A stretch of DNA of 9,895 nt, from assembly GCF_003334355.1 (NCBI RefSeq), contig NZ_QOWP01000057.1. The stretch is one strand, 5' to 3'. This DNA is from Escherichia coli (GTDB taxonomy: Bacteria; Pseudomonadota; Gammaproteobacteria; Enterobacterales; Enterobacteriaceae). Both the position numbers and the translations under genes were made by a program. Under the pieces are notes generated by a model, which saw nothing but the letters and a program-made list of their open reading frames with translations, had not been told where the DNA came from and did no database searches. Shown piece after piece: positions 1,179-9,895 of this stretch. Every line of letters begins with the position of its first letter. The first letter of the stretch is position 1.

Positions 1179-1321
1179 GGAGACCTTATACAAAAAATAT
1201 AAAATAAGCTACCCATTGCCAAAGACACTATAAGCCTGGCAAAAAATATTACACAACATAAATGCTAATTGTTTATGCGGGCTTTGTATTGCTTTCTGTA
1301 TCCTACAAATGAGTGAAATTT

Positions 1322-2038
1322 ATGAAAAAGGCTAAAATACTTTCTGGCGTATTATTACTGTGCTTTTCGTCACCATTAATTTCTCAGGCTGCGACACTGG
1401 ACGTACGTGGTGGATATCGTAGCGGAAGCCATGCCTATGAGACTCGACTCAAAGTCAGTGAGGGATGGCAAAATGGATGGTGGGCAAGCATGGAAAGTAA
1501 TACCTGGAATACCATTCATGATAATAAAAAGGAAAATGCCGCACTCAATGATGTTCAGGTTGAAGTTAATTACGCGATTAAACTTGATGATCAATGGACG
1601 GTGCGCCCGGGAATGTTAACGCATTTTAGCAGCAACGGCACCCGCTACGGACCCTACGTAAAACTGTCCTGGGACGCGACAAAAGATCTTAATTTTGGCA
1701 TTCGCTATCGTTACGACTGGAAAGCTTACCGACAACAAGACTTATCCGGTGATATGTCTCGTGATAACGTTCATCGTTGGGATGGATATGTCACTTACCA
1801 TATTAATAGTGATTTCACCTTCGCATGGCAAACGACGCTATACAGCAAACAGAACGATTATCGCTATGCAAACCATAAGAAATGGGCGACGGAAAATGCA
1901 TTTGTTCTACAATACCATATGACGCCCGATATTACGCCATACATAGAATATGACTACCTTGACCGTCAGGGTGTTTACAACGGCAGAGATAATTTATCGG
2001 AAAACAGTTATCGCATTGGTGTGTCATTTAAACTGTAG
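1322..2038 (+). CDS. nanC: N-acetylneuraminic acid outer-membrane channel NanC (KdgM-family porin), 238 aa
   Basis: ORF-track frame 1313-2038. Chosen start is the ATG at 1322 (MKKAKILSGVLLLCFSSPLISQA..., signal peptide ending AQA-A); the track start at 1313 is an upstream GTG. Sequence recognised as E. coli NanC (YjhA). Stop TAG 2036-2038. Confidence 0.93.
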   Translation: MKKAKILSGVLLLCFSSPLISQAATLDVRGGYRSGSHAYETRLKVSEGWQNGWWASMESNTWNTIHDNKKENAALNDVQVEVNYAIKLDDQWTVRPGMLTHFSSNGTRYGPYVKLSWDATKDLNFGIRYRYDWKAYRQQDLSGDMSRDNVHRWDGYVTYHINSDFTFAWQTTLYSKQNDYRYANHKKWATENAFVLQYHMTPDITPYIEYDYLDRQGVYNGRDNLSENSYRIGVSFKL

Positions 2039-2057
2039 TAGACAGGAGACAGTCACA

Positions 2058-3164
2058 ATGAATAAAACAATAACGGCGCTTGCTATCATAATGGCTTCAT
2101 TTGCCGCAAACGCGTCTGTATTACCGGAAACTCCTGTGCCATTTAAAAGTGGTACCGGAGCAATTGATAACGACACTGTCTACATTGGTTTAGGTAGCGC
2201 AGGTACAGCATGGTACAAGCTGGATACACAGGCCAAAGATAAAAAATGGACAGCGTTAGCTGCATTCCCTGGTGGACCGAGAGATCAAGCAACCTCTGCA
2301 TTTATTGATGGTAATCTGTATGTGTTTGGCGGCATTGGCAAAAACAGCGAGGGCTTGACTCAGGTATTTAATGACGTACACAAATACAACCCCAAAACCA
2401 ATAGCTGGGTTAAATTGATGTCGCACGCGCCGATGGGCATGGCGGGCCATGTGACTTTTGTACACAACGGCAAGGCTTATGTTACTGGCGGTGTTAACCA
2501 GAATATCTTCAATGGCTATTTTGAAGATCTCAACGAAGCTGGAAAAGATTCAACCACTATAGATAAAATCAACGCCCACTATTTTGACAAAAAAGCAGAA
2601 GATTATTTCTTCAATAAGTTTCTGTTGTCTTTTGATCCCTCTACACAGCAATGGAGTTACGCTGGCGAATCTCCCTGGTACGGAACGGCTGGTGCGGCGG
2701 TTGTGAATAAAGGTGATAAAACCTGGCTTATTAATGGCGAAGCCAAACCAGGATTGCGAACGGATGCCGTATTTGAACTTGATTTCACCGGTAATAATTT
2801 AAAATGGAATAAGCTTGCTCCCGTCGCATCACCAGATGGCGTCGCTGGCGGTTTTGCAGGCATGAGCAATGACTCACTTATATTTGCCGGAGGGGCCGGA
2901 TTCAAAGGTTCACGAGAAAATTACCAGAACGGTAAGAACTATGCGCATGAAGGCCTGAAAAAATCATATAGCGCTGATATTCATCTTTGGCATAACGGGA
3001 AATGGGATAAATCGGGCGAATTATCGCAAGGTCGGGCCTACGGAGTATCATTGCCCTGGAATAATAGTTTATTAATTATTGGCGGTGAAACTGCAGGCGG
3101 CAAAGCGGTGACGGATTCAGTTTTAATTTCTGTGAAGGATAATAAAGTCACAGTACAAAACTAA
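2058..3164 (+). CDS. nanM: N-acetylneuraminate mutarotase NanM (Kelch-repeat beta-propeller, periplasmic), 368 aa
   Basis: ORF-track frame 1950-3164. Chosen start is the ATG at 2058 preceded by AGGAGA (2044-2049); the track start at 1950 overlaps the nanC 3' end. MNKTITALAIIMASFAANASV... signal peptide; recognised as NanM (YjhT). Confidence 0.93.
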   Translation: MNKTITALAIIMASFAANASVLPETPVPFKSGTGAIDNDTVYIGLGSAGTAWYKLDTQAKDKKWTALAAFPGGPRDQATSAFIDGNLYVFGGIGKNSEGLTQVFNDVHKYNPKTNSWVKLMSHAPMGMAGHVTFVHNGKAYVTGGVNQNIFNGYFEDLNEAGKDSTTIDKINAHYFDKKAEDYFFNKFLLSFDPSTQQWSYAGESPWYGTAGAAVVNKGDKTWLINGEAKPGLRTDAVFELDFTGNNLKWNKLAPVASPDGVAGGFAGMSNDSLIFAGGAGFKGSRENYQNGKNYAHEGLKKSYSADIHLWHNGKWDKSGELSQGRAYGVSLPWNNSLLIIGGETAGGKAVTDSVLISVKDNKVTVQN

Positions 3165-3170
3165 CGCTTC

Positions 3171-3192
3171 AGGGCCCCGGTAAAGGGGCCTT
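3171..3192 (+). other. GC-rich stem-loop (AGGGCCCC / GGGGCCTT, loop GGTAAA) in the nanM-nanS intergenic region
   Basis: 8-bp stem read directly from sequence, starting 7 nt after the nanM stop. No clean downstream T-tract, so it looks more like an intra-operon attenuator or RNA-stability hairpin than a strong terminator. Confidence 0.4.
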
Positions 3193-3228
3193 GCTATCAA
3201 TTTGTCATTTGTATTACGCGAAAATTAT

Positions 3229-4209
3229 ATGAACGCAATAATATCGCCCGATTATTACTATGTTCTTACCGTTGCTGGTCAGTCTAATGCCATGGCGTAT
3301 GGCGAAGGACTACCATTACCGGACAAGGAAGATGCGCCTCATCCCAGAATTAAACAATTAGCGAGATTTGCGCATACACATCCCGGAGGCCCGTCATGTC
3401 ACTTTAACGACATTATTCCACTGACTCACTGCCCACACGATGTTCAGGATATGCAGGGTTATCACCATCCTCTGGCAACGAATCATCAAACACAGTACGG
3501 CACCGTTGGCCAGGCACTACATATAGCACGGAAATTACTGCCCTTTATTCCTGATAATGCAGGGGTTCTCATCGTTCCGTGTTGCCGTGGCGGATCGGCT
3601 TTTACCGCGGGCAGCGAAGGGACATATTCAGAACGGCACGGAGCCAGCCATGATGCTTGTCGTTGGGGAACGGATACTCCGCTATACCAGGATTTAGTCA
3701 GCAGAACGCGAGCCGCACTGGCAAAAAATCCGCAGAACAAATTCCTCGGCGTATGCTGGATGCAAGGCGAATTTGACTTAATGACCAGTGACTACGCGTC
3801 ACACCCTCAACACTTTAATCATATGGTTGACGCCTTTCGTAGGGATCTAAAACAATACCATTCTCAGCTTAATAAAATTACTGACGCGCCGTGGTTTTGC
3901 GGCGATACCACCTGGTACTGGAAAGAAAATTTCCCTCATGCGTATGAAGCTATTTATGGCAATTATCAAAATAATGTTCTAGCCAATATTATTTTCGTCG
4001 ACTTCCAGCAACAAGGTGCAAGAGGACTGACGAACGCGCCTGATGAAGATCCGGACGATTTAAGCACGGGATATTACGGTTCAGCGTACCGGTCACCGGA
4101 GAACTGGACGACGGCACTGCGAAGCAGTCATTTCAGCGCGGCAGCCCGTCGAGGGATTATTTCTGACAGGTTTGTAGAAGCAATTTTGCAGTTTTGGCGC
4201 GAAAGGTGA
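3229..4209 (+). CDS. nanS: 9-O-acetyl-N-acetylneuraminate esterase NanS, 326 aa
   Basis: ORF-track frame 3202-4209. Chosen start is the ATG at 3229 (MNAIISPDYYYVLTVAGQSNAMAYGEG...); the track start at 3202 is a TTG. Recognised as NanS (YjhS). Stop TGA 4207-4209. Confidence 0.9.
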   Translation: MNAIISPDYYYVLTVAGQSNAMAYGEGLPLPDKEDAPHPRIKQLARFAHTHPGGPSCHFNDIIPLTHCPHDVQDMQGYHHPLATNHQTQYGTVGQALHIARKLLPFIPDNAGVLIVPCCRGGSAFTAGSEGTYSERHGASHDACRWGTDTPLYQDLVSRTRAALAKNPQNKFLGVCWMQGEFDLMTSDYASHPQHFNHMVDAFRRDLKQYHSQLNKITDAPWFCGDTTWYWKENFPHAYEAIYGNYQNNVLANIIFVDFQQQGARGLTNAPDEDPDDLSTGYYGSAYRSPENWTTALRSSHFSAAARRGIISDRFVEAILQFWRER

Positions 4210-4219
4210 GCGTTCATTA

Positions 4220-4488
4220 ATTTGATTTATTCGCATCCATCAGCGCTTTTAACTCCTCCGGCGTAAACGGTGGTTTGCGTCGGTGCAACATCGCATGGCA
4301 ATTAGGGCACACAGGAAGTAAAAAAACATATGAGATCAAGGTAATATATCTTCGCTTGCAGGCTTGAACCGCAGAAAATTTGCGAGCATGATCGCAATTA
4401 TTTCACTGCCAGGGATATCAATGGCTTCCAGTAAATCGCTGACGAGCCTTTTTTTGCTCTCCAGCAAATCCGTAAGCAGCGTGACCCA
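4220..4488 (-). pseudogene. HNH endonuclease remnant (C-terminal CxxCH zinc-finger region), frameshifted, no start codon
   Basis: - strand frame with codons at 4402..4220 ends ...LISYVFLLPVCPNCHAMLHRRKPPFTPEELKALMDANKSN* (stop 4217-4219). An adjacent - strand frame (4488..4339) gives the protein-like VTLLTDLLESKKRLVSDLLEAIDIPGSEIIAIMLANFLRFKPASEDILP. The two segments are in different frames and both are bounded by stops upstream. Confidence 0.4.
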
Positions 4489-4857
4489 TTATTTCGCAAA
4501 CATGTATTACGCGCTTATAACTACCAGTGCGCAATATGTAGCTTTAATATTTGTTACGGCAACTCCACCGTCTCACTGGAAGCGACACATATAAAATGGA
4601 AACAACATGGTGGCCCTTGTGAAATTCCCAATGGCCTGGCGCTTTGCGCGATACATCATAAAGCCTTTGATAAAGGAACGATTGGCCTGGATGAAAATAT
4701 GCGGGTACTGGTATTGGATGCGGTAAACGGCGGAGAGATCATTGAGAGGTCATTCTGGGATTTTGACGGAAAAATTATTGCGTTGCCACAGGTGCGTAAA
4801 AATTACCCTTTTGAGGGGGTTGTAGAGTGGCATCGGAAAGAGTTTTTTAGGGGGTGA
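4435..4857 (+). pseudogene. HNH_2-type endonuclease remnant (N-terminally truncated; in-frame TAA at 4432-4434)
   Basis: + frame 4435-4857 translates to ...QQIRKQRDPLFRKHVLRAYNYQCAICSFNICYGNSTVSLEATHIKWKQHGGPCEIPNGLALCAIHHKAFDKGTIGLDENMRVLV...EFFRG*. This matches the recalled HNH_2 signature (FR..vL.aY..CAiC ... LEAaHI ... NGLaLC..HH.aFD.G). No plausible start codon or RBS; the upstream frame is closed by stops. Confidence 0.5.
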
Positions 4858-4860
4858 GGT

Positions 4861-5169
4861 AACCATTATATATCTTTCACCTAGAATTTTAAATGTAATA
4901 GATAAAGTATTTTCTGACACCGAAAGTATTATTTATGAGTACATAGCCATAAATCAATTTTAAAATCTCAATATAAAACACGTTTACAAATATTCTAGTC
5001 AGAGTAAATATATATTCATTATAAGAGAATCCAATTATTAACCAATCGACATTACAAATTAAAAAATAATTAGCATGTTGAACTGTACATTAATTTATAT
5101 ACATAGTAAATTTACATCTATTCATGATATAATTATCGTGATATCAATTCATTAATCAGGAAAATCATA
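4861..5169. other. Strongly AT-rich intergenic block (by eye well under 30% GC)
   Basis: Dense A/T runs and TA-rich words read directly from sequence, contrasting with the nanCMS genes. Typical of horizontally acquired DNA and promoter islands. Confidence 0.7.
5125..5133 (+). promoter_or_regulatory. Candidate extended -10 promoter element TGATATAAT upstream of the 5170 ORF
   Basis: TG-n-TATAAT at 5125-5133, about 37 nt upstream of ATG 5170. No good -35 at 17 bp spacing; the AT-rich context makes chance matches likely. Confidence 0.3.
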
Positions 5170-5472
5170 ATGGAATTATTAAATACTTATGATGATAAAG
5201 AAACAGCTGAAATATTTTTTGAAAGAATAGAAGGAGAGAAAAGATTAGCAAGTGAACGAGATGCTACGGAAACAGTCTATAACCTCTTCGGGCAACCAAC
5301 CTGGAAAAATTTATATCTTCTTGATATGTTTAACCTAAAAGAATTACAAGGGATTATAGAGTGTAGAAAAAATGGACAGTCTTTCGACCAGGAACGACAC
5401 CGGGAAATAATAAAAATGCTTGAATATGCAGCAAAATCGTTTGACTTAATTATTCCTGCACATTGGCGATAA
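5170..5472 (+). CDS. Hypothetical small protein (100 aa), function unknown
   Basis: ORF-track 5170-5472. AGGAAAA 5 nt upstream of the ATG; followed by a strong hairpin terminator. Sequence (MELLNTYDDKETAEIFFERIEGEKRLASERDATETVYNLFGQPTWKNLYLLD...) not recognised as any family I know. Confidence 0.5.
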   Translation: MELLNTYDDKETAEIFFERIEGEKRLASERDATETVYNLFGQPTWKNLYLLDMFNLKELQGIIECRKNGQSFDQERHREIIKMLEYAAKSFDLIIPAHWR

Positions 5473-5474
5473 TA

Positions 5475-5507
5475 TCTGCTCCATATCTCACAGAGATATG
5501 GAGCAGA
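5475..5507. terminator. Bidirectional intrinsic terminator between convergent genes
   Basis: 15-bp perfect stem (5475-5489 pairs with 5493-5507; TCTGCTCCATATCTC / GAGATATGGAGCAGA) with 3-nt loop ACA. Flanked by A/T-rich tracts on both sides, between the 5170-5472 ORF stop and the 5519 stop of the - strand gene. Confidence 0.7.
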
Positions 5508-5518
5508 ATCATATTTAT

Positions 5519-8500
5519 TTACTCGCTAACCATCTTACTGAATAATTTCTCCAGATACAATGAGCCAGTATCCTCAATAAAAAGCACATTTCTGGCTTCC
5601 AGATTCTCTTTTGAATCAGGTACGTTTACTAAGTCAACATAACAAGTTTCAGAAACAATAAATGCACTTAATGATAAGTTATCATCCGATAATTTATGTT
5701 CAAGATTCTTGATTTCTTTATATAATCCGAACTTTGGATCATCAAGATTAAGATTGCGGATGCCTTTTGGATCAATAAGACTTAACCATTGTTTACCACT
5801 TTTATCATCGACTAACCACAATAAGAAATCCGGATAAAAATTACCCGCAGTAGCAAAGCCCAGGCCTCTATTTTTAGAATCCGCATTTCTTAGCAGATAT
5901 AAACTTTTATCACCAATAATTTTCTGCCCTTTTGTCGAATCAACAAAAGACTGAAGATCATGGACAAAAGTAATCTCACTTGATGCACCCAGTGTTGCCG
6001 GTCGCATTTTTAGCGGTATGTTGGCATTTTTTTCAATCGAAAGAAGTGGATAATAGAGATGTTTATCAAAGGTAATAGCAACCATCCCGGATGCACTCCA
6101 GGATTTTGCTTTACCGATTTCGCCGTCGATGACCAATTGTTGTAATTGTTCCAGCCGACTGGCATATGCCAACCCATCATCAGTTTCTTCGATCTCGAAA
6201 TGGTACATTTTGATCATACCAGGATCATCTTCTTTCACCTGCGTGACTTCATAAAACTGACCTTCATAAGCATTTTTCAATGTGTTGTAAAAGCGATCAG
6301 TATAATCAGTCAGCAGACGAAGCATAATATCTTCCTGCTTAGCAATATCTGCATATTGCTTAATCTCAAGCTCTGAAGCTGGAATCAAAAGGGTATACCA
6401 ACTATTTCCGATCTTTGTCTTACCGGTACAAAAGTCGATCAAACGTTGTTTATCCACACGTAAATTTGACCAGCCGCGTTGTAGTTTATAATTCTGAATG
6501 GCGAGATAAAGCCGATCAAAATCAAACGCACTAATGATTTTATAATCTAACTTCGCTTCATTACGCACGTTAACCGGAGTATTGTCCCCTTTTCTGCTGG
6601 TATCAATCGACTCAAGTTTCGGGTATAGGTCCAGCTTAATATGCGGCTGCTTAATTTTCCCCTGAAAATCAGCAGGAACTTCATACAATTCGGGAAAATA
6701 GACACGTTTAAAGCCGAGTCTTTGATTATCTTTATAACCATCTTTAAGCTTAAGTGTTTTAAGCCTGGTTGCTGGCATATTTGGCCGAGTTTCAAAATTC
6801 AGCTCAAGGATCTCGTCACTTGGCGTAATCCCTTCATCTTCCAGGTATTGTTTAAAGGTTGCCATGTAATCGGCACGTACACCGAATACATTCAGTGTCT
6901 CTAATTTTTCCAGATGCAACCCTTTCGGACGCTCACCGGGTGTACTGCGTTTCAAAGAATAATTGCGACCTTTAAGGCGAACGCCACGACCAAATAACTG
7001 AATGATCTGTGAACCTTCTCCACGGCCCATATTGAGCAATCCCATCGTTGAGACGCGCCAACTGCTCCAGCCTTCAGTAAATTTTCGCGAGCCGATCAAA
7101 ATATGTAGTTGCGAGTCTTTGTCATTTAACGTATGAAAGAGTGACTTCGCAAAATCATCTCTCTGATAATCAAATGTCGTATCCTCTTCACACATTTTGT
7201 AAAGAGACGGTGCATCACCAATATTGATAAGACCAAACGGTTCGGCCTCACCAACCTGTAATGCCAGTTCACCTTTACTGCCTATTAAATTCAGAACTCG
7301 CAGTCTCTGACCTGAGTGAGTGGTGTTAAACAAACGAGAAAGAATATCTGCGTAGATATCTTCCGGGCCGTTCATTAGTGCGGTAAAGCGATTTTCAAAA
7401 ATGTTACGCTCTTTGGTATCAAGAATTCGCGCTTTATTTTCAATGAGATCTTTAATCCACGATTTTGCCTGCGATTCATGATTTAAAAACCATGCTAAAA
7501 AACGCAGTACTGCGTGAATGTCTGAATCTTCACCACTTACGGTGTTACCGACAAAAACCCATAGCGGTTTTTCGATATTAAATTCATTTAATTTTTCTTT
7601 ATTCTTATTGAATAAATATTGTTGCTGATAAAAGCTGAGCAAACACGCGGTAAAATACTCATACCGACGCTCATCTTTTTTATCCTCTTCAGGATTAAGG
7701 TTAAGAATCAGTGATTCTTTACCATAACCATCCTCATAGAAGAATTTATAGGAGTAATCGAACAGAATCGATTTCCCATAGACTTCTCGTGTCGCCTGAA
7801 TACGCGCATCACGTTGTTCTTCGCTGGTTAATGCTATTTGCGCTAACTGTTCTTCGCTCAGTTTACCTAAGGCAGTTGTTTCAAAAAGCAGCTTTGCTTT
7901 TTTCTTCTGAATTTCTGTTTCAACTGCCTCAACATTATTGCCACCGGCCACTGCCTGGCCAAAAGTTGCTGAATATTCAAACGCAAATCCGTCACGCGTT
8001 AATTTGTCACGACGGCGCATCCAGGCACCAGCAGCACTTCCTGTGCCTTTATGCCCTTCATCAATCAGGACCAGATTGTTGCCTTCAAATGCCTCAACGG
8101 CAACAGTTTTGTCACCCATTTCATCGGCAAGTTTATTGATATCAATAACTTCAATCGTGCCTTTAAATGGCGCGGATTTACTCTTATCGAATAACTGGTA
8201 TTGGGTAAATCCTGAGTTTTCCAGTTCATCTAAATGTTGCTTCGATAGGCGTTCATCCGGCGTAAGCAGGATGATTTTATCCGGGTAATGATGGCTATTA
8301 CCGTTCTGGAAATAATGTAAATATTGCAAAATATTGACATGTAATAGCAGTGTCTTACCAGAACCAGTAGCGTTCCAGTATGCCAGTTTATTCAAATCAT
8401 CCAGAACGTATGATTTGAACTGATTAGCCCGGTCTTTTGCTGTTTTATCATTTTCAGCATTGTATGCTGCCAGCTCGTTATTTAGCCCATCGAGTAATTG

Positions 8501-8899
8501 CTGTTTACGGTTGAAGTACCAGTCCAGGTAGATCTCGGTAAACAGAAGCGACAAGTACTGAAAATATTTCATGTTCAGCACTGTGTCTTCTTTACGATTA
8601 CGGTGCTCGGTTATCTGCTGCCAGTGCTGCACGATATTGAGATCGTAACGACGCAGTTCATCGAGATCGATAAGATCGACCTCGAATAAATAGTTACTCA
8701 GCTCATGGAAGAATAAGCTTTGGCCATCTTCATGGATGCCTTCAAAGCGATCCTCGCCTAACCGATTCTTCAAACCTTGCAATGTGCCATCTTTAAAAAA
8801 ATGGAACATAAAGCGGTTTAAAACCAACTGCTTATGAAAGCTCAGCTTGCTGTTAGTCTCTTTTTTAACTGCTTTACCGGTGGTCGGTTTTTTAGCCAT
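5519..8899 (-). CDS. SF2 helicase with C-terminal PD-(D/E)xK nuclease motif; Type III restriction Res-like subunit (1126 aa)
   Basis: Intact ORF. Strong RBS GGAGGAGG 7 nt upstream of the ATG at 8899. Walker A ATGSGKT (aa 177-183; 8351-8371), motif II LIDEGH (aa 278-283; 8051-8062), motif VI QLFGRGVR (aa 634-641; 6977-7000), and C-terminal YPDFLLWLV...LIDPK (aa 1022-1045; 5765-5833) fitting PD-x(n)-(D/E)xK. Helicase-then-nuclease order matches Type III Res. Confidence 0.8.
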   Translation of the reverse strand: MAKKPTTGKAVKKETNSKLSFHKQLVLNRFMFHFFKDGTLQGLKNRLGEDRFEGIHEDGQSLFFHELSNYLFEVDLIDLDELRRYDLNIVQHWQQITEHRNRKEDTVLNMKYFQYLSLLFTEIYLDWYFNRKQQLLDGLNNELAAYNAENDKTAKDRANQFKSYVLDDLNKLAYWNATGSGKTLLLHVNILQYLHYFQNGNSHHYPDKIILLTPDERLSKQHLDELENSGFTQYQLFDKSKSAPFKGTIEVIDINKLADEMGDKTVAVEAFEGNNLVLIDEGHKGTGSAAGAWMRRRDKLTRDGFAFEYSATFGQAVAGGNNVEAVETEIQKKKAKLLFETTALGKLSEEQLAQIALTSEEQRDARIQATREVYGKSILFDYSYKFFYEDGYGKESLILNLNPEEDKKDERRYEYFTACLLSFYQQQYLFNKNKEKLNEFNIEKPLWVFVGNTVSGEDSDIHAVLRFLAWFLNHESQAKSWIKDLIENKARILDTKERNIFENRFTALMNGPEDIYADILSRLFNTTHSGQRLRVLNLIGSKGELALQVGEAEPFGLINIGDAPSLYKMCEEDTTFDYQRDDFAKSLFHTLNDKDSQLHILIGSRKFTEGWSSWRVSTMGLLNMGRGEGSQIIQLFGRGVRLKGRNYSLKRSTPGERPKGLHLEKLETLNVFGVRADYMATFKQYLEDEGITPSDEILELNFETRPNMPATRLKTLKLKDGYKDNQRLGFKRVYFPELYEVPADFQGKIKQPHIKLDLYPKLESIDTSRKGDNTPVNVRNEAKLDYKIISAFDFDRLYLAIQNYKLQRGWSNLRVDKQRLIDFCTGKTKIGNSWYTLLIPASELEIKQYADIAKQEDIMLRLLTDYTDRFYNTLKNAYEGQFYEVTQVKEDDPGMIKMYHFEIEETDDGLAYASRLEQLQQLVIDGEIGKAKSWSASGMVAITFDKHLYYPLLSIEKNANIPLKMRPATLGASSEITFVHDLQSFVDSTKGQKIIGDKSLYLLRNADSKNRGLGFATAGNFYPDFLLWLVDDKSGKQWLSLIDPKGIRNLNLDDPKFGLYKEIKNLEHKLSDDNLSLSAFIVSETCYVDLVNVPDSKENLEARNVLFIEDTGSLYLEKLFSKMVSE

Positions 8900-8901
8900 T
8901 C

Positions 8902-9873
8902 TTAAACCTCCTCCGCAAACATCAGGTTCAAGAATTCAGGTTCGATCTGGCGGATTTTCAGGCTACGAACAATCTCGCCGTCTTCTTCATCAACGGTAAA
9001 GGCGGTAGGTAAGTTATGATCGCCATTGATATAGATAACGTCGAACGTATTTTCTTTTGCATATAAATCGAATCTGTTGGCATATTTATTCAATTCTTCA
9101 TAGCCGATCTTGTCGCAATCGCGCCACAGAATAAGGGTACGCTCGCCAGTTGGTAGCGTTCCTTCAACACGCACATAGCCACGTTCGATATTGGATTCGA
9201 TGGATTTCACATGTAAGCCAATGAGATAGTTGAAAGTTTCAACTAAATCGATGTTCTTACGCTCAGTAGCACCTGCGGAATCCGTTGTAACATCCATTTC
9301 GTAGTTAAATGGTTTTTTGAAATTATCAGTATTGAGTAGTGAGCCTTTGCTTTCTGTTTCAAGCATATAGTTAAGAACATAATCCTCTCGAATTTCTTTA
9401 AGATCGTCGAAAAGATCCTTTGTTGTTTCAGTACGTTTCAGTGCTATATTGTTAAGAGTATCCTCAAAACTCTCAATTTTAATATATTTTATTAATGTCT
9501 GCTCAACTGGATTACAGCTTAGTGCTTTTCCATACTTCCAGTCAGTTGTAAAAATAGCTTTTTTTACTCTAGGCAAGGTAACAGAATAAAAATATTCACC
9601 TTGTTCGACCAAGCTAAATTTTCGAAAACCATTATCATCCCTATTCATATCTACCACTGCATGCCCTGTAGTACCAGAGCCAGCAAAATAGTCTAAGAAA
9701 TGAGCATACTTCGAATTACTAAGCGACTCTAAACATTCCTTAACCGCATAAATACTTTTTGGAAAAGAAAAATTAATCTGAGTCACGTTAAACAAACTAT
9801 TTAATAGTTCCGAACCATTGAACCGCCCCGGGTTTCCTGGAGAGTGTTTTATCTGTGAACTCAGGCTGCCAGA
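8902..9873 (-). CDS. Type III Mod-like N6/N4 DNA methyltransferase, C-terminal portion (AdoMet motif I plus C-terminal domain); reading frame interrupted upstream
   Basis: Open frame 9873..8902 contains FSFPKS...LDYFAGSGTTGHAV (motif I at 9667-9693) followed by RKFSLVEQGEYF, the pattern seen in beta-class and Type III Mod methyltransferases. The stop TAA overlaps the res RBS with only a 2-nt gap to the res ATG. In-frame stop at 9874-9876; a different frame is open 9800-9895. The catalytic DPPY-type motif is not in the window. Confidence 0.65.
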   Translation of the reverse strand, partial: SGSLSSQIKHSPGNPGRFNGSELLNSLFNVTQINFSFPKSIYAVKECLESLSNSKYAHFLDYFAGSGTTGHAVVDMNRDDNGFRKFSLVEQGEYFYSVTLPRVKKAIFTTDWKYGKALSCNPVEQTLIKYIKIESFEDTLNNIALKRTETTKDLFDDLKEIREDYVLNYMLETESKGSLLNTDNFKKPFNYEMDVTTDSAGATERKNIDLVETFNYLIGLHVKSIESNIERGYVRVEGTLPTGERTLILWRDCDKIGYEELNKYANRFDLYAKENTFDVIYINGDHNLPTAFTVDEEDGEIVRSLKIRQIEPEFLNLMFAEEV

Positions 9874-9895
9874 TCATCGTTTCCGATGGAAGCAT

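What the first reader, a model, noticed from the sequence alone, without database searches (positions are those of the whole stretch)
5519..8899. Res-like protein has extra domains: ~175-aa N-terminal region before Walker A and ~480-aa C-terminal region after helicase motif VI
Walker A sits at aa 177-183, later than I would expect for a canonical Type III Res. Residues ~320-370 are highly charged and coiled-coil-like (EIQKKKAKLLFETTALGKLSEEQLAQIALTSEEQRDARIQ). The putative nuclease motif is only ~100 aa from the C-terminus (aa 1022-1045), leaving a ~380-aa unassigned region (aa ~642-1020) between helicase and nuclease. These may be regulatory or sensing domains and could set this family apart from classical Res enzymes.
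Basis: partly seen in the sequence, partly recalled or inferred. Interest (0 to 1): 0.55.

Follow-up and report, generated by a model that had tools for sequence, protein, structure and literature searches.

The report
Divergent Type III-like restriction subunit
The 1126-residue protein is the DNA-cutting subunit of a little-studied, Type III-like restriction-modification system; most of its "extra" regions have counterparts in classical enzymes, and in this strain its partner methylase gene has been cut by a mobile element.

Summary
Walker A is at residues 177-183, motif VI at 634-642, the PD...DxK nuclease motif at 1023-1045, and 484 residues follow motif VI.

The reading "extra domains" holds only in part. 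EcoP1I Res also has 432 residues after motif VI and 359 between motif VI and its PD motif, against 381 here. In EcoP15I that stretch is a spacer plus an endonuclease. So the C-terminal plan is the ordinary Res plan.

Two parts are truly additional:
- **N-terminal region:** about 90 more residues before Walker A. They form a helical domain conserved across the whole family.
- **Helical insertion (about 321-368):** present in only about 9% of relatives.

I found no evidence for sensing or regulation.

The family is nevertheless distinct from classical Res. It does not match NCBIfam NF012027, and no Pfam family matches its C-terminal 484 residues. Only its own PADLOC model, REase_III PDLC03654, matches.

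Its partners are a roughly 1030-residue Mod and, in 47 of 55 informative loci across many phyla, a DrmD-like SNF2 ATPase.

In this window an IS3-family element cuts mod at 9818/9819, so res is probably a silent orphan.

Moderate-to-low interest.

The parts
5519..8899 (-). Complete res-like gene, 1126 aa plus stop
   Evidence: ORF list and translation. PADLOC REase_III PDLC03654 matches end to end at 2316 bits. One residue differs from E. coli 042 WP_001085526.1.
8420..8842 (-). N-terminal all-helical region, residues ~20-160 (residues 1-19 disordered). The part before ~107 has no positional counterpart in EcoP15I Res.
   Evidence: AF2 helices 21-149 with pLDDT about 90. Occupancy 0.9-1.0 in 67 relatives; Q114 and E122 invariant. 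No Pfam hit. No similarity to the EcoP1-type N-terminus (hhalign E 0.41).
7940..8407 (-). RecA1 lobe, residues ~165-320, with Walker A (177-183 = nt 8351-8371), DEGH (280-283) and SAT (310-312)
   Evidence: Pfam ResIII at 167-293, E 2.6e-7. Motif residues invariant. hhalign to EcoP1-type RecA1 gives E 3.2e-4 with motifs I, II and III in register.
7796..7939 (-).
   Evidence: Occupancy 0.09 for 326-350 and 0.47 for 351-375 in alignment A2. phmmer matches split here in most relatives. Three short helices in the model.
7580..7795 (-). Conserved element between the two motor lobes, residues ~369-440 (ILFDYSYKFFYEDGYGK hairpin plus long helices). It sits where EcoP15I has its Pin domain.
   Evidence: Column identity 0.71 for 376-400; Y374, Y384, F387, D390, G393 and K394 invariant. 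EcoP15I Pin is aa 288-365, between RecA1 and RecA2. The correspondence is by position only, not by superposition.
6830..7567 (-). RecA2 lobe, residues ~445-690, with motif V (FTEGW 607-611) and motif VI (634-642 = nt 6974-7000)
6095..6817 (-). Alpha/beta spacer, residues ~695-935, specific to this family
5522..6082 (-). C-terminal PD-(D/E)xK endonuclease domain, residues ~940-1126. Catalytic candidates are E975, D1024, D1043 and K1045 (motif 1023-1045 = nt 5765-5833).
8902..9818 (-). 3' remnant of the mod gene, Mod residues ~731-1034. It keeps motif I (FAGSG) and the C-terminal domain but has lost DPPY.
   Evidence: PADLOC MTase_III PDLC03646 positions 765-1057. The intact 1034-aa Mod in E. 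coli 042 has DPPY at 497 and FAGSG at 774. Identity to 042 ends at 9818.
9819..9895 (.). End of an IS3-family insertion sequence that interrupts mod
   Evidence: This 77-bp stretch matches thousands of sites annotated 'IS3 family transposase' in E. coli genomes. Sequence diverges abruptly from E. coli 042 at 9819.

Best explanation
The ORF encodes the restriction (Res-like) subunit of a divergent, Type III-like, ATP-dependent restriction-modification system. From N to C it has a helical N-terminal region (~20-160), an SF2 DEGH motor (RecA1 ~165-320, RecA2 ~445-690) with an inter-lobe element at the position of the EcoP15I Pin domain, a ~240-residue alpha/beta spacer, and a PD-(D/E)xK endonuclease (~940-1126). 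This is the same order of parts as in EcoP1I/EcoP15I Res. The additions are ~90 N-terminal residues and a ~45-residue insertion found only in close relatives. By inference from classical Type III enzymes, the partner Mod (1034 aa, beta-class N6/N4 methyltransferase) reads and methylates the target site. Res would bind Mod, use ATP to start long-range communication along DNA, and cut unmethylated DNA with the C-terminal nuclease. The N-terminal region and the spacer most likely act as scaffolds that hold Mod and/or the usually co-encoded DrmD-like SNF2 ATPase and position the nuclease; they are unlikely to be sensors. In this window an IS3-family element has removed the first ~730 codons of mod, so res is probably an inactive orphan. 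Shown here: the layout, the folds, the conservation, the gene neighbourhood and the IS break. Inferred: complex formation, the ATP-driven mechanism, the scaffold role and the inactivity in this strain.
Against: No member of this family has been characterised experimentally in anything I could find. Sequence similarity to classical Res is limited to the helicase and nuclease motifs. The spacer and N-terminus show none, so their equivalence to EcoP15I parts rests on position only. The conserved SNF2 partner has no counterpart in classical Type III systems, so the mechanism may differ. The scaffold role for the N-terminal region and the spacer is untested. Q114 and E122, invariant on one helix, could instead be a nucleotide-contacting Q motif.
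Confidence: 0.72

Rival explanations
1. One reading: the N-terminal ~175 residues and the ~380 residues between helicase and nuclease are additional regulatory or sensing domains that set this enzyme apart mechanistically from classical Res.
For: The N-terminal extension is real and conserved. The spacer is alpha/beta rather than purely helical as in EcoP15I, is ~50 residues longer, and has no detectable homologue in Pfam or the PDB. The PADLOC profile for this family (1154 positions) is longer than the other REase_III profiles seen (871-989).
Against: Classical Res has a region of almost the same size at the same place (PMC4490356). Spacer conservation is low and shows no cluster of invariant polar residues that would suggest a ligand pocket. 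The N-terminal region is kept whether or not an SNF2 gene is nearby. No known sensor fold was matched.
Confidence: 0.12
2. The protein is the effector of a three-protein, DISARM/ARMADA-like machine (SNF2 ATPase + methyltransferase + helicase-nuclease). In this view defence needs the SNF2 motor and does not follow the two-site collision mechanism of Type III enzymes.
For: The upstream SNF2 protein in E. coli 042 matches PADLOC DrmD at 658 bits and BrxHII at 251 bits. SNF2 is adjacent in 85% of informative loci across phyla, in two fixed gene orders. ARMADA and class 1 DISARM share the SNF2 + methylase + helicase(-nuclease) theme (PMC12458937).
Against: The methylase is a beta-class PF01555 Type III Mod, not PglX-like or DrmMI. 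The helicase-nuclease shows no DrmA, DruE or DUF1998 match. Eight informative loci lack SNF2 yet keep full-length Mod and Res.
Confidence: 0.3
3. It is an ordinary member of the classical EcoP1I/EcoP15I Res family and nothing about its architecture is distinctive.
For: It has the same order of parts, the same mod-res coupling, and older NCBI names call it 'type III restriction endonuclease subunit R'.
Against: It gets no hit to NF012027, which EcoP1I Res hits at 1081 bits, and no hit to the PADLOC models that EcoP1I Res hits. The whole-length profile-profile comparison gives only a motif II-III match. It also has the extra N-terminal region, a Mod of 1034 aa, and the SNF2 partner.
Confidence: 0.08

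Closest known systems
Type III restriction enzyme Res subunit, EcoP1I/EcoP15I type (NCBIfam NF012027; PDB 4ZCF)
   Different: About 92 extra N-terminal residues. A 45-residue lineage-specific insertion. The spacer is alpha/beta, ~240 aa, with no detectable sequence similarity. No match to NF012027 or to any Pfam family over the C-terminal half, whereas classical Res carries PF19778. Mod is 1034 aa rather than ~645. An SNF2 gene usually accompanies the pair.
Class 1 DISARM and ARMADA defence systems (SNF2 ATPase DrmD/ArmA + methyltransferase + helicase or helicase-nuclease)
   Same: The neighbouring SNF2 protein is a close match to PADLOC DrmD. The overall theme of SNF2 + methylase + helicase fused to a PD-(D/E)xK-type nuclease recalls ARMADA type I (PMC12458937).
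   Different: The helicase here is not of the YprA/DrmA type (no DUF1998, no DrmA or DruE model hit). The methylase is not PglX-like or DrmMI. No DrmB or DrmC genes are present in the 042 locus.
Type I restriction enzyme HsdR motor
   Different: From established knowledge of Type I enzymes, HsdR carries its nuclease at the N-terminus and works with HsdM and HsdS. Here the nuclease is C-terminal and the partner is a single Mod-type methylase.

Membership tests
Classical Type III Res (EcoP1I/EcoP15I, NCBIfam NF012027) | SF2 helicase motifs I-VI in an N-terminal motor | tested here: met
Classical Type III Res (EcoP1I/EcoP15I, NCBIfam NF012027) | C-terminal PD-(D/E)xK endonuclease domain | tested here: met
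Classical Type III Res (EcoP1I/EcoP15I, NCBIfam NF012027) | Match to the family's curated sequence models (NF012027 equivalog; Pfam PF19778 over the C-terminal part) | tested here: not met
   No NCBIfam hit at E<=0.01. No PF19778 hit. Positive control: EcoP1I Res scores 1081 bits against NF012027, cut-off 564, and classical homologues carry PF19778.
Classical Type III Res (EcoP1I/EcoP15I, NCBIfam NF012027) | Spacer between RecA2 and nuclease homologous to the EcoP15I helical spacer | tested here: inconclusive
   Same position and similar size. hhalign E 0.084. The structural test could not use the nuclease end of Res, which is not modelled in 4ZCF; 627 residues are modelled in 4zcf_C.
Classical Type III Res (EcoP1I/EcoP15I, NCBIfam NF012027) | Encoded directly downstream of a beta-class N6-adenine Mod methyltransferase | tested here: met
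   PF01555 Mod with DPPY at 497 before FAGSG at 774 in E. coli 042. 2-bp mod-res gap. Mod-Res adjacency seen in almost every GTDB locus with enough upstream sequence.
Classical Type III Res (EcoP1I/EcoP15I, NCBIfam NF012027) | Mod2Res1-2 complex; ATP-dependent cleavage needing two inversely oriented unmethylated sites | not testable with these tools
   Needs biochemistry; no characterised member found.
PADLOC REase_III subfamily PDLC03654 (catalogued putative Type III Res) | End-to-end match to the subfamily profile | tested here: met
   2316 bits, residues 3-1124 on profile positions 7-1128 of 1154.
DISARM class 1 | DrmA (YprA-type helicase) with DrmB (DUF1998) and DrmC (PLD), alongside DrmD and DrmMI | tested here: not met
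   Only the SNF2 neighbour matches DrmD. Res matches no DrmA model. The 042 locus has no DUF1998 or PLD genes. Mod matches MTase_III, not DrmMI.
ARMADA | YprA-like helicase with a Vsr-type nuclease plus a PglX-like methyltransferase | tested here: not met
   No DUF1998 or YprA signature in Pfam or PADLOC. The methylase is PF01555 beta-class. Family definition taken from PMC12458937.
Type I HsdR | N-terminal nuclease; HsdM/HsdS partners | tested here: not met
   The nuclease is C-terminal. The partner is a Mod-type methylase and there is no hsdS.

The most novel reading that the evidence does not exclude
SNF2-Mod-Res is an undescribed three-component defence machine, a hybrid of Type III R-M and DISARM/ARMADA. 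In it, the family-specific N-terminal region and the alpha/beta spacer of Res dock a second motor (the DrmD-like SNF2 ATPase). Cleavage would then be licensed by SNF2-driven translocation or remodelling instead of, or in addition to, the classical two-site collision.
Probability: 0.25. Interest if true: 0.6.

Novelty: new variant of a known kind. Interest (0 to 1): 0.35.

Why it matters
Type III enzymes are understood mechanistically from essentially one lineage, EcoP1I/EcoP15I, and the nuclease end of Res is missing from the EcoP15I structure (4ZCF). This family is large: 780 clusters at 50% identity match at E<1e-30. It is spread over many phyla, keeps the Res plan with very different sequence, and almost always travels with an SNF2 ATPase. 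If the SNF2 protein is part of the machine, it would link classical restriction with the DISARM/ARMADA type of defence. For genome annotation the practical points are these. The C-terminal 484 residues are a spacer plus a PD-(D/E)xK nuclease that Pfam does not cover. The "extra" C-terminal length is not evidence of new domains. In this particular strain the system is broken.

Tried and rejected
- **Sequence searches against solved structures.** The single protein and the family profile both found nothing usable.
- **Whole-length profile-profile comparison with EcoP1-type Res.** It aligned only motifs II-III. Region-wise hhalign was needed to see the RecA1 and nuclease registers. Those E-values are for single comparisons and are weak.
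- **Foldseek of the full model against the PDB.** It returned only generic SF2 helicases with low TM-scores.
- **Q-motif placement.** Aligning Q114 with the EcoP15I Q-tip was inconclusive, because hhalign paired it with a different Q.
- **My initial recollection that K-12 yjhR is a fragment of this gene.** This was wrong: yjhR is a Mokosh protein.
- **A possible 'short Mod' variant (L004).** That ORF aligns only to Mod residues 731-1034, so it looks like another truncated mod, not a variant.
- **Link between the N-terminal region or long Mod and SNF2.** I found none: loci without SNF2 keep both.
- **Literature searches for the three-gene system or its accession numbers.** They found nothing specific.
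- **Model coordinates.** They are not available to scripts, so I could not do contact-based domain parsing or a pairwise superposition with a predicted EcoP15I Res.
Full report
**What is in the window.**

The window is Escherichia/Shigella chromosome. On the plus strand it carries nanC, nanM and nanS (1313-4209) and a 100-codon ORF (5170-5472). On the minus strand lie the 1126-codon ORF under study (5519-8899) and the 3' end of a second gene (8902-9818).

Megablast against complete E. coli genomes finds window 5000-9818 at 99.9-100% identity in 165 of 5426 genomes. There it is annotated "DEAD/DEAH box helicase family protein" and "DNA methyltransferase".

In E. coli 042 the intact operon has three genes:
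- an SNF2-related protein of 963 aa;
- a DNA methyltransferase of 1034 aa;
- this helicase of 1126 aa.

The window's protein differs from the 042 protein at one residue.

Identity to 042 stops abruptly at 9818/9819. The last 77 bases match thousands of IS3-family transposase sites. So in this strain mod has lost about 730 codons, including the catalytic DPPY at residue 497. It keeps only motif I and the C-terminal domain.

**Checking the observation.**

- Walker A ATGSGKT at 177-183;
- DEGH at 280-283 and SAT at 310-312;
- FTEGW at 607-611;
- motif VI QLFGRGVRL at 634-642;
- YPDF at 1022-1025 and IDPKG at 1042-1046;
- the quoted peptide at 329-368.

Two descriptive details are overstated. The 320-370 segment is 31% charged against 28% for the whole protein. 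It is predicted as three short helices, not a coiled coil.

**The decisive comparison.**

I took EcoP1I Res (970 aa) from the phage P1 record and located the same landmarks.

| Interval | This protein | EcoP1I Res |
|---|---|---|
| N-terminus to Walker A lysine | 182 | 90 |
| Motif I to II | 98 | 136 |
| Motif II to III | 30 | 27 |
| Motif III to V | 298 | 252 |
| Motif V to VI | 26 | 25 |
| Motif VI to PD | 381 | 359 |
| PD to (D/E)xK | 20 | 19 |
| (D/E)xK to C-terminus | 81 | 52 |

So classical Res also has about 430 residues after motif VI, with the nuclease motif near the C-terminus. The EcoP15I structure paper gives these domains: RecA1 7-269, Pin insertion 288-365, RecA2 366-594, helical spacer 620-810, then a disordered endonuclease domain (PMC4490356).

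It is not an addition.

The real length differences are these:
- +92 residues at the N-terminus;
- +46 between motifs III and V, about the size of the ~45-residue insertion described below;
- about +50 spread over the spacer and the C-terminal tail.

**Conservation.**

A search of 1.84 billion cluster representatives finds 2487 relatives at E<=1e-3 and 780 at E<=1e-30. Most listed relatives are about 1020-1130 aa long.

In an alignment of 68 members at 33-93% identity, occupancy is 0.8-1.0 along almost the whole protein. This includes residues 26-175 and 643-1126. The exceptions are residues 326-350 (0.09) and 351-375 (0.47). The charged segment is therefore an insertion confined to the closest relatives.

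Invariant residues include:
- Q114 and E122, on one N-terminal helix;
- the Walker A, DEGH, SAT and motif V/VI residues;
- E975, R1004, N1005, P1023, D1024 and P1044 in the nuclease. D1043 is conserved at 90% or more, and K1045 is the consensus residue.

**Structure.**

AlphaFold2 with this alignment gives a confident model (mean pLDDT 87.3, pTM 0.74). Its parts are:
- helices 21-149;
- a RecA1 lobe at about 165-320;
- the insertion helices at 323-368;
- a conserved hairpin-plus-helices element at 370-440;
- a RecA2 lobe at about 445-690;
- a mixed alpha/beta region at about 695-935;
- an alpha-beta-beta-beta-alpha-beta unit from about 940 to the end.

Pfam matches nothing in the C-terminal 484 residues of any of 68 family members.

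**Relation to classical Res.**

The family is catalogued. PADLOC's REase_III model PDLC03654 matches end to end at 2316 bits, and the mod remnant matches MTase_III PDLC03646.

It is nevertheless not the EcoP1I/EcoP15I family:
- It has no NCBIfam hit.
- As a control, EcoP1I Res scores 1081 bits on NF012027. It hits PADLOC PDLC03649 and PDLC03647 but not PDLC03654.
- Profile searches against PDB sequences find nothing.
- Whole-length hhalign against an EcoP1-type alignment aligns only motifs II-III.

Region by region, RecA1 aligns with motifs I, Ia, II and III in register (E 3.2e-4). The nuclease aligns with PDF and (D/E)xK in register (E 0.0065). The spacer (E 0.084) and the N-terminus (E 0.41) do not align. 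These E-values are for single comparisons and are weak. They support the same plan and a distant relationship, nothing more.

**Genomic context across bacteria.**

Eighty loci from GTDB species representatives were retrieved. They include Proteobacteria, Planctomycetota, Acidobacteria, Chlorobi, Spirochaetes, Nitrospirae, Verrucomicrobia and a Bacillota member.

Nearly all loci with enough upstream sequence have a Mod of 960-1161 aa (median 1039) just before Res. A DrmD-like SNF2 gene of about 960 aa is adjacent in 47 of 55 informative loci. Usually the order is SNF2-Mod-Res; in Pasteurellaceae and Neisseria it is Mod-Res-SNF2.

The 042 SNF2 protein matches PADLOC DrmD at 658 bits. Its Pfam domains are SNF2-rel_dom and Helicase_C.

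Loci without SNF2 keep the full N-terminal region of Res and the long Mod. Neither feature is therefore tied to the presence of SNF2.

In many loci other genes sit between mod and res:
- YhcG/DUF1016;
- RhuM;
- an ABC/AAA-type ATPase with a weak, sub-threshold MAD3-like match;
- a Fic-like protein, also below the curated cut-off.

From my own knowledge, cargo of this kind is commonly lodged inside Type I R-M operons. I did not test that comparison here.

**How it most likely works.**

Shown here are a motor-spacer-nuclease protein encoded 2 bp downstream of a beta-class methylase gene. The same 2-bp gap was reported for EcoP1 (PMC3874151).

The rest is inferred from EcoP15I. Mod would recognise and methylate the site. 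Res would bind Mod, hydrolyse ATP to start long-range communication, and cut unmethylated DNA with E975/D1024/D1043/K1045.

The N-terminal helices and the spacer are best read as scaffolds for Mod and possibly SNF2. This rests on their low conservation, the absence of any ligand-binding or sensor fold, and their fixed presence. The conserved 370-440 element sits where EcoP15I has its DNA-contacting Pin domain and may play that part; this is by position only.

The role of SNF2 is unknown. Its 85% linkage suggests it belongs to the system, by analogy with DrmD in DISARM and ArmA in ARMADA (PMC12458937). Membership in those systems fails on the defining YprA/DUF1998 helicase and on the type of methylase.

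**State in this strain.**

With mod truncated and the operon's upstream part displaced by the IS, res is probably a silent orphan. In EcoP1/P15 the amount of Res depends on Mod, which was proposed to promote its folding and protect it from proteolysis (PMC3874151). This is an inference. The ORF itself is intact.

**Verdict.**

The protein does belong to a family distinct from classical Res, but not because it has extra C-terminal domains. The true additions are the conserved N-terminal helical region and a lineage-specific insertion. There is no evidence for sensing.

This is a widespread, uncharacterised, usually three-gene SNF2-Mod-Res module. I rate it a new variant of a known kind, of moderate-to-low interest.

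Noticed in passing
window 9819-9895 (junction at 9818/9819): The end of an IS3-family insertion sequence interrupts the mod gene. Only Mod residues ~731-1034 remain, and the SNF2 gene and operon promoter are displaced. No complete E. coli genome in the collection showed this exact junction.
   Followed up: partly
window 8897-8904: The mod stop codon (8902-8904) and the res ATG (8897-8899) are 2 bp apart, with a GGAGGAGG ribosome-binding site inside the end of mod. The same 2-bp gap was reported for EcoP1 mod/res, which suggests translational coupling.
   Followed up: partly
window 5170-5472 (+): A 100-codon ORF in a 29% GC stretch, convergent with res. It is annotated hypothetical (WP_000421876.1) in E. 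coli 042 and has no PADLOC, NCBIfam or PHROG match.
   Followed up: partly
window 1313-5500; L001 7230-8858: nanC-nanM-nanS sit next to the system, and the site downstream of nanS differs between strains. E. coli 042 has a truncated nanS plus remnants of an HNH endonuclease and a phosphorothioate-dependent restriction enzyme. From memory, K-12 carries the Mokosh gene yjhR at this site; the paper I read confirms only that yjhR is a Mokosh protein, not its position. It looks like a hotspot for defence genes.
   Followed up: partly
L011 8839-9891; L019 8891-9931; L016 8147-9984; L073 2148-3257: In many distant loci other genes are inserted between mod and res: YhcG/DUF1016 nuclease, RhuM, an ABC/AAA-type ATPase (weak MAD3-like match) followed by a small ORF, and a Fic-like protein.
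   Followed up: yes
L032, L037-L040, L042, L044, L055, L061, L066: In Pasteurellaceae, Neisseria and some Moraxellaceae the gene order is Mod-Res-SNF2 instead of SNF2-Mod-Res. In several of these loci the SNF2 or Mod gene is split into two ORFs, which may reflect frameshifts or phase variation.
   Followed up: no
L001 12903-16007 (Mod of E. coli 042): Mod is 1034 aa. The only Pfam domain is PF01555 at 491-790, so about 450 N-terminal residues and about 240 C-terminal residues are unassigned. It is far longer than the ~645-aa EcoP15I Mod.
   Followed up: partly
L004 323-1864: A metagenomic relative has a 513-aa 'Mod' that aligns only to residues 731-1034 of the long Mod. That is almost the same truncation point as in this window, and it may be an independent decay event.
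   Followed up: partly
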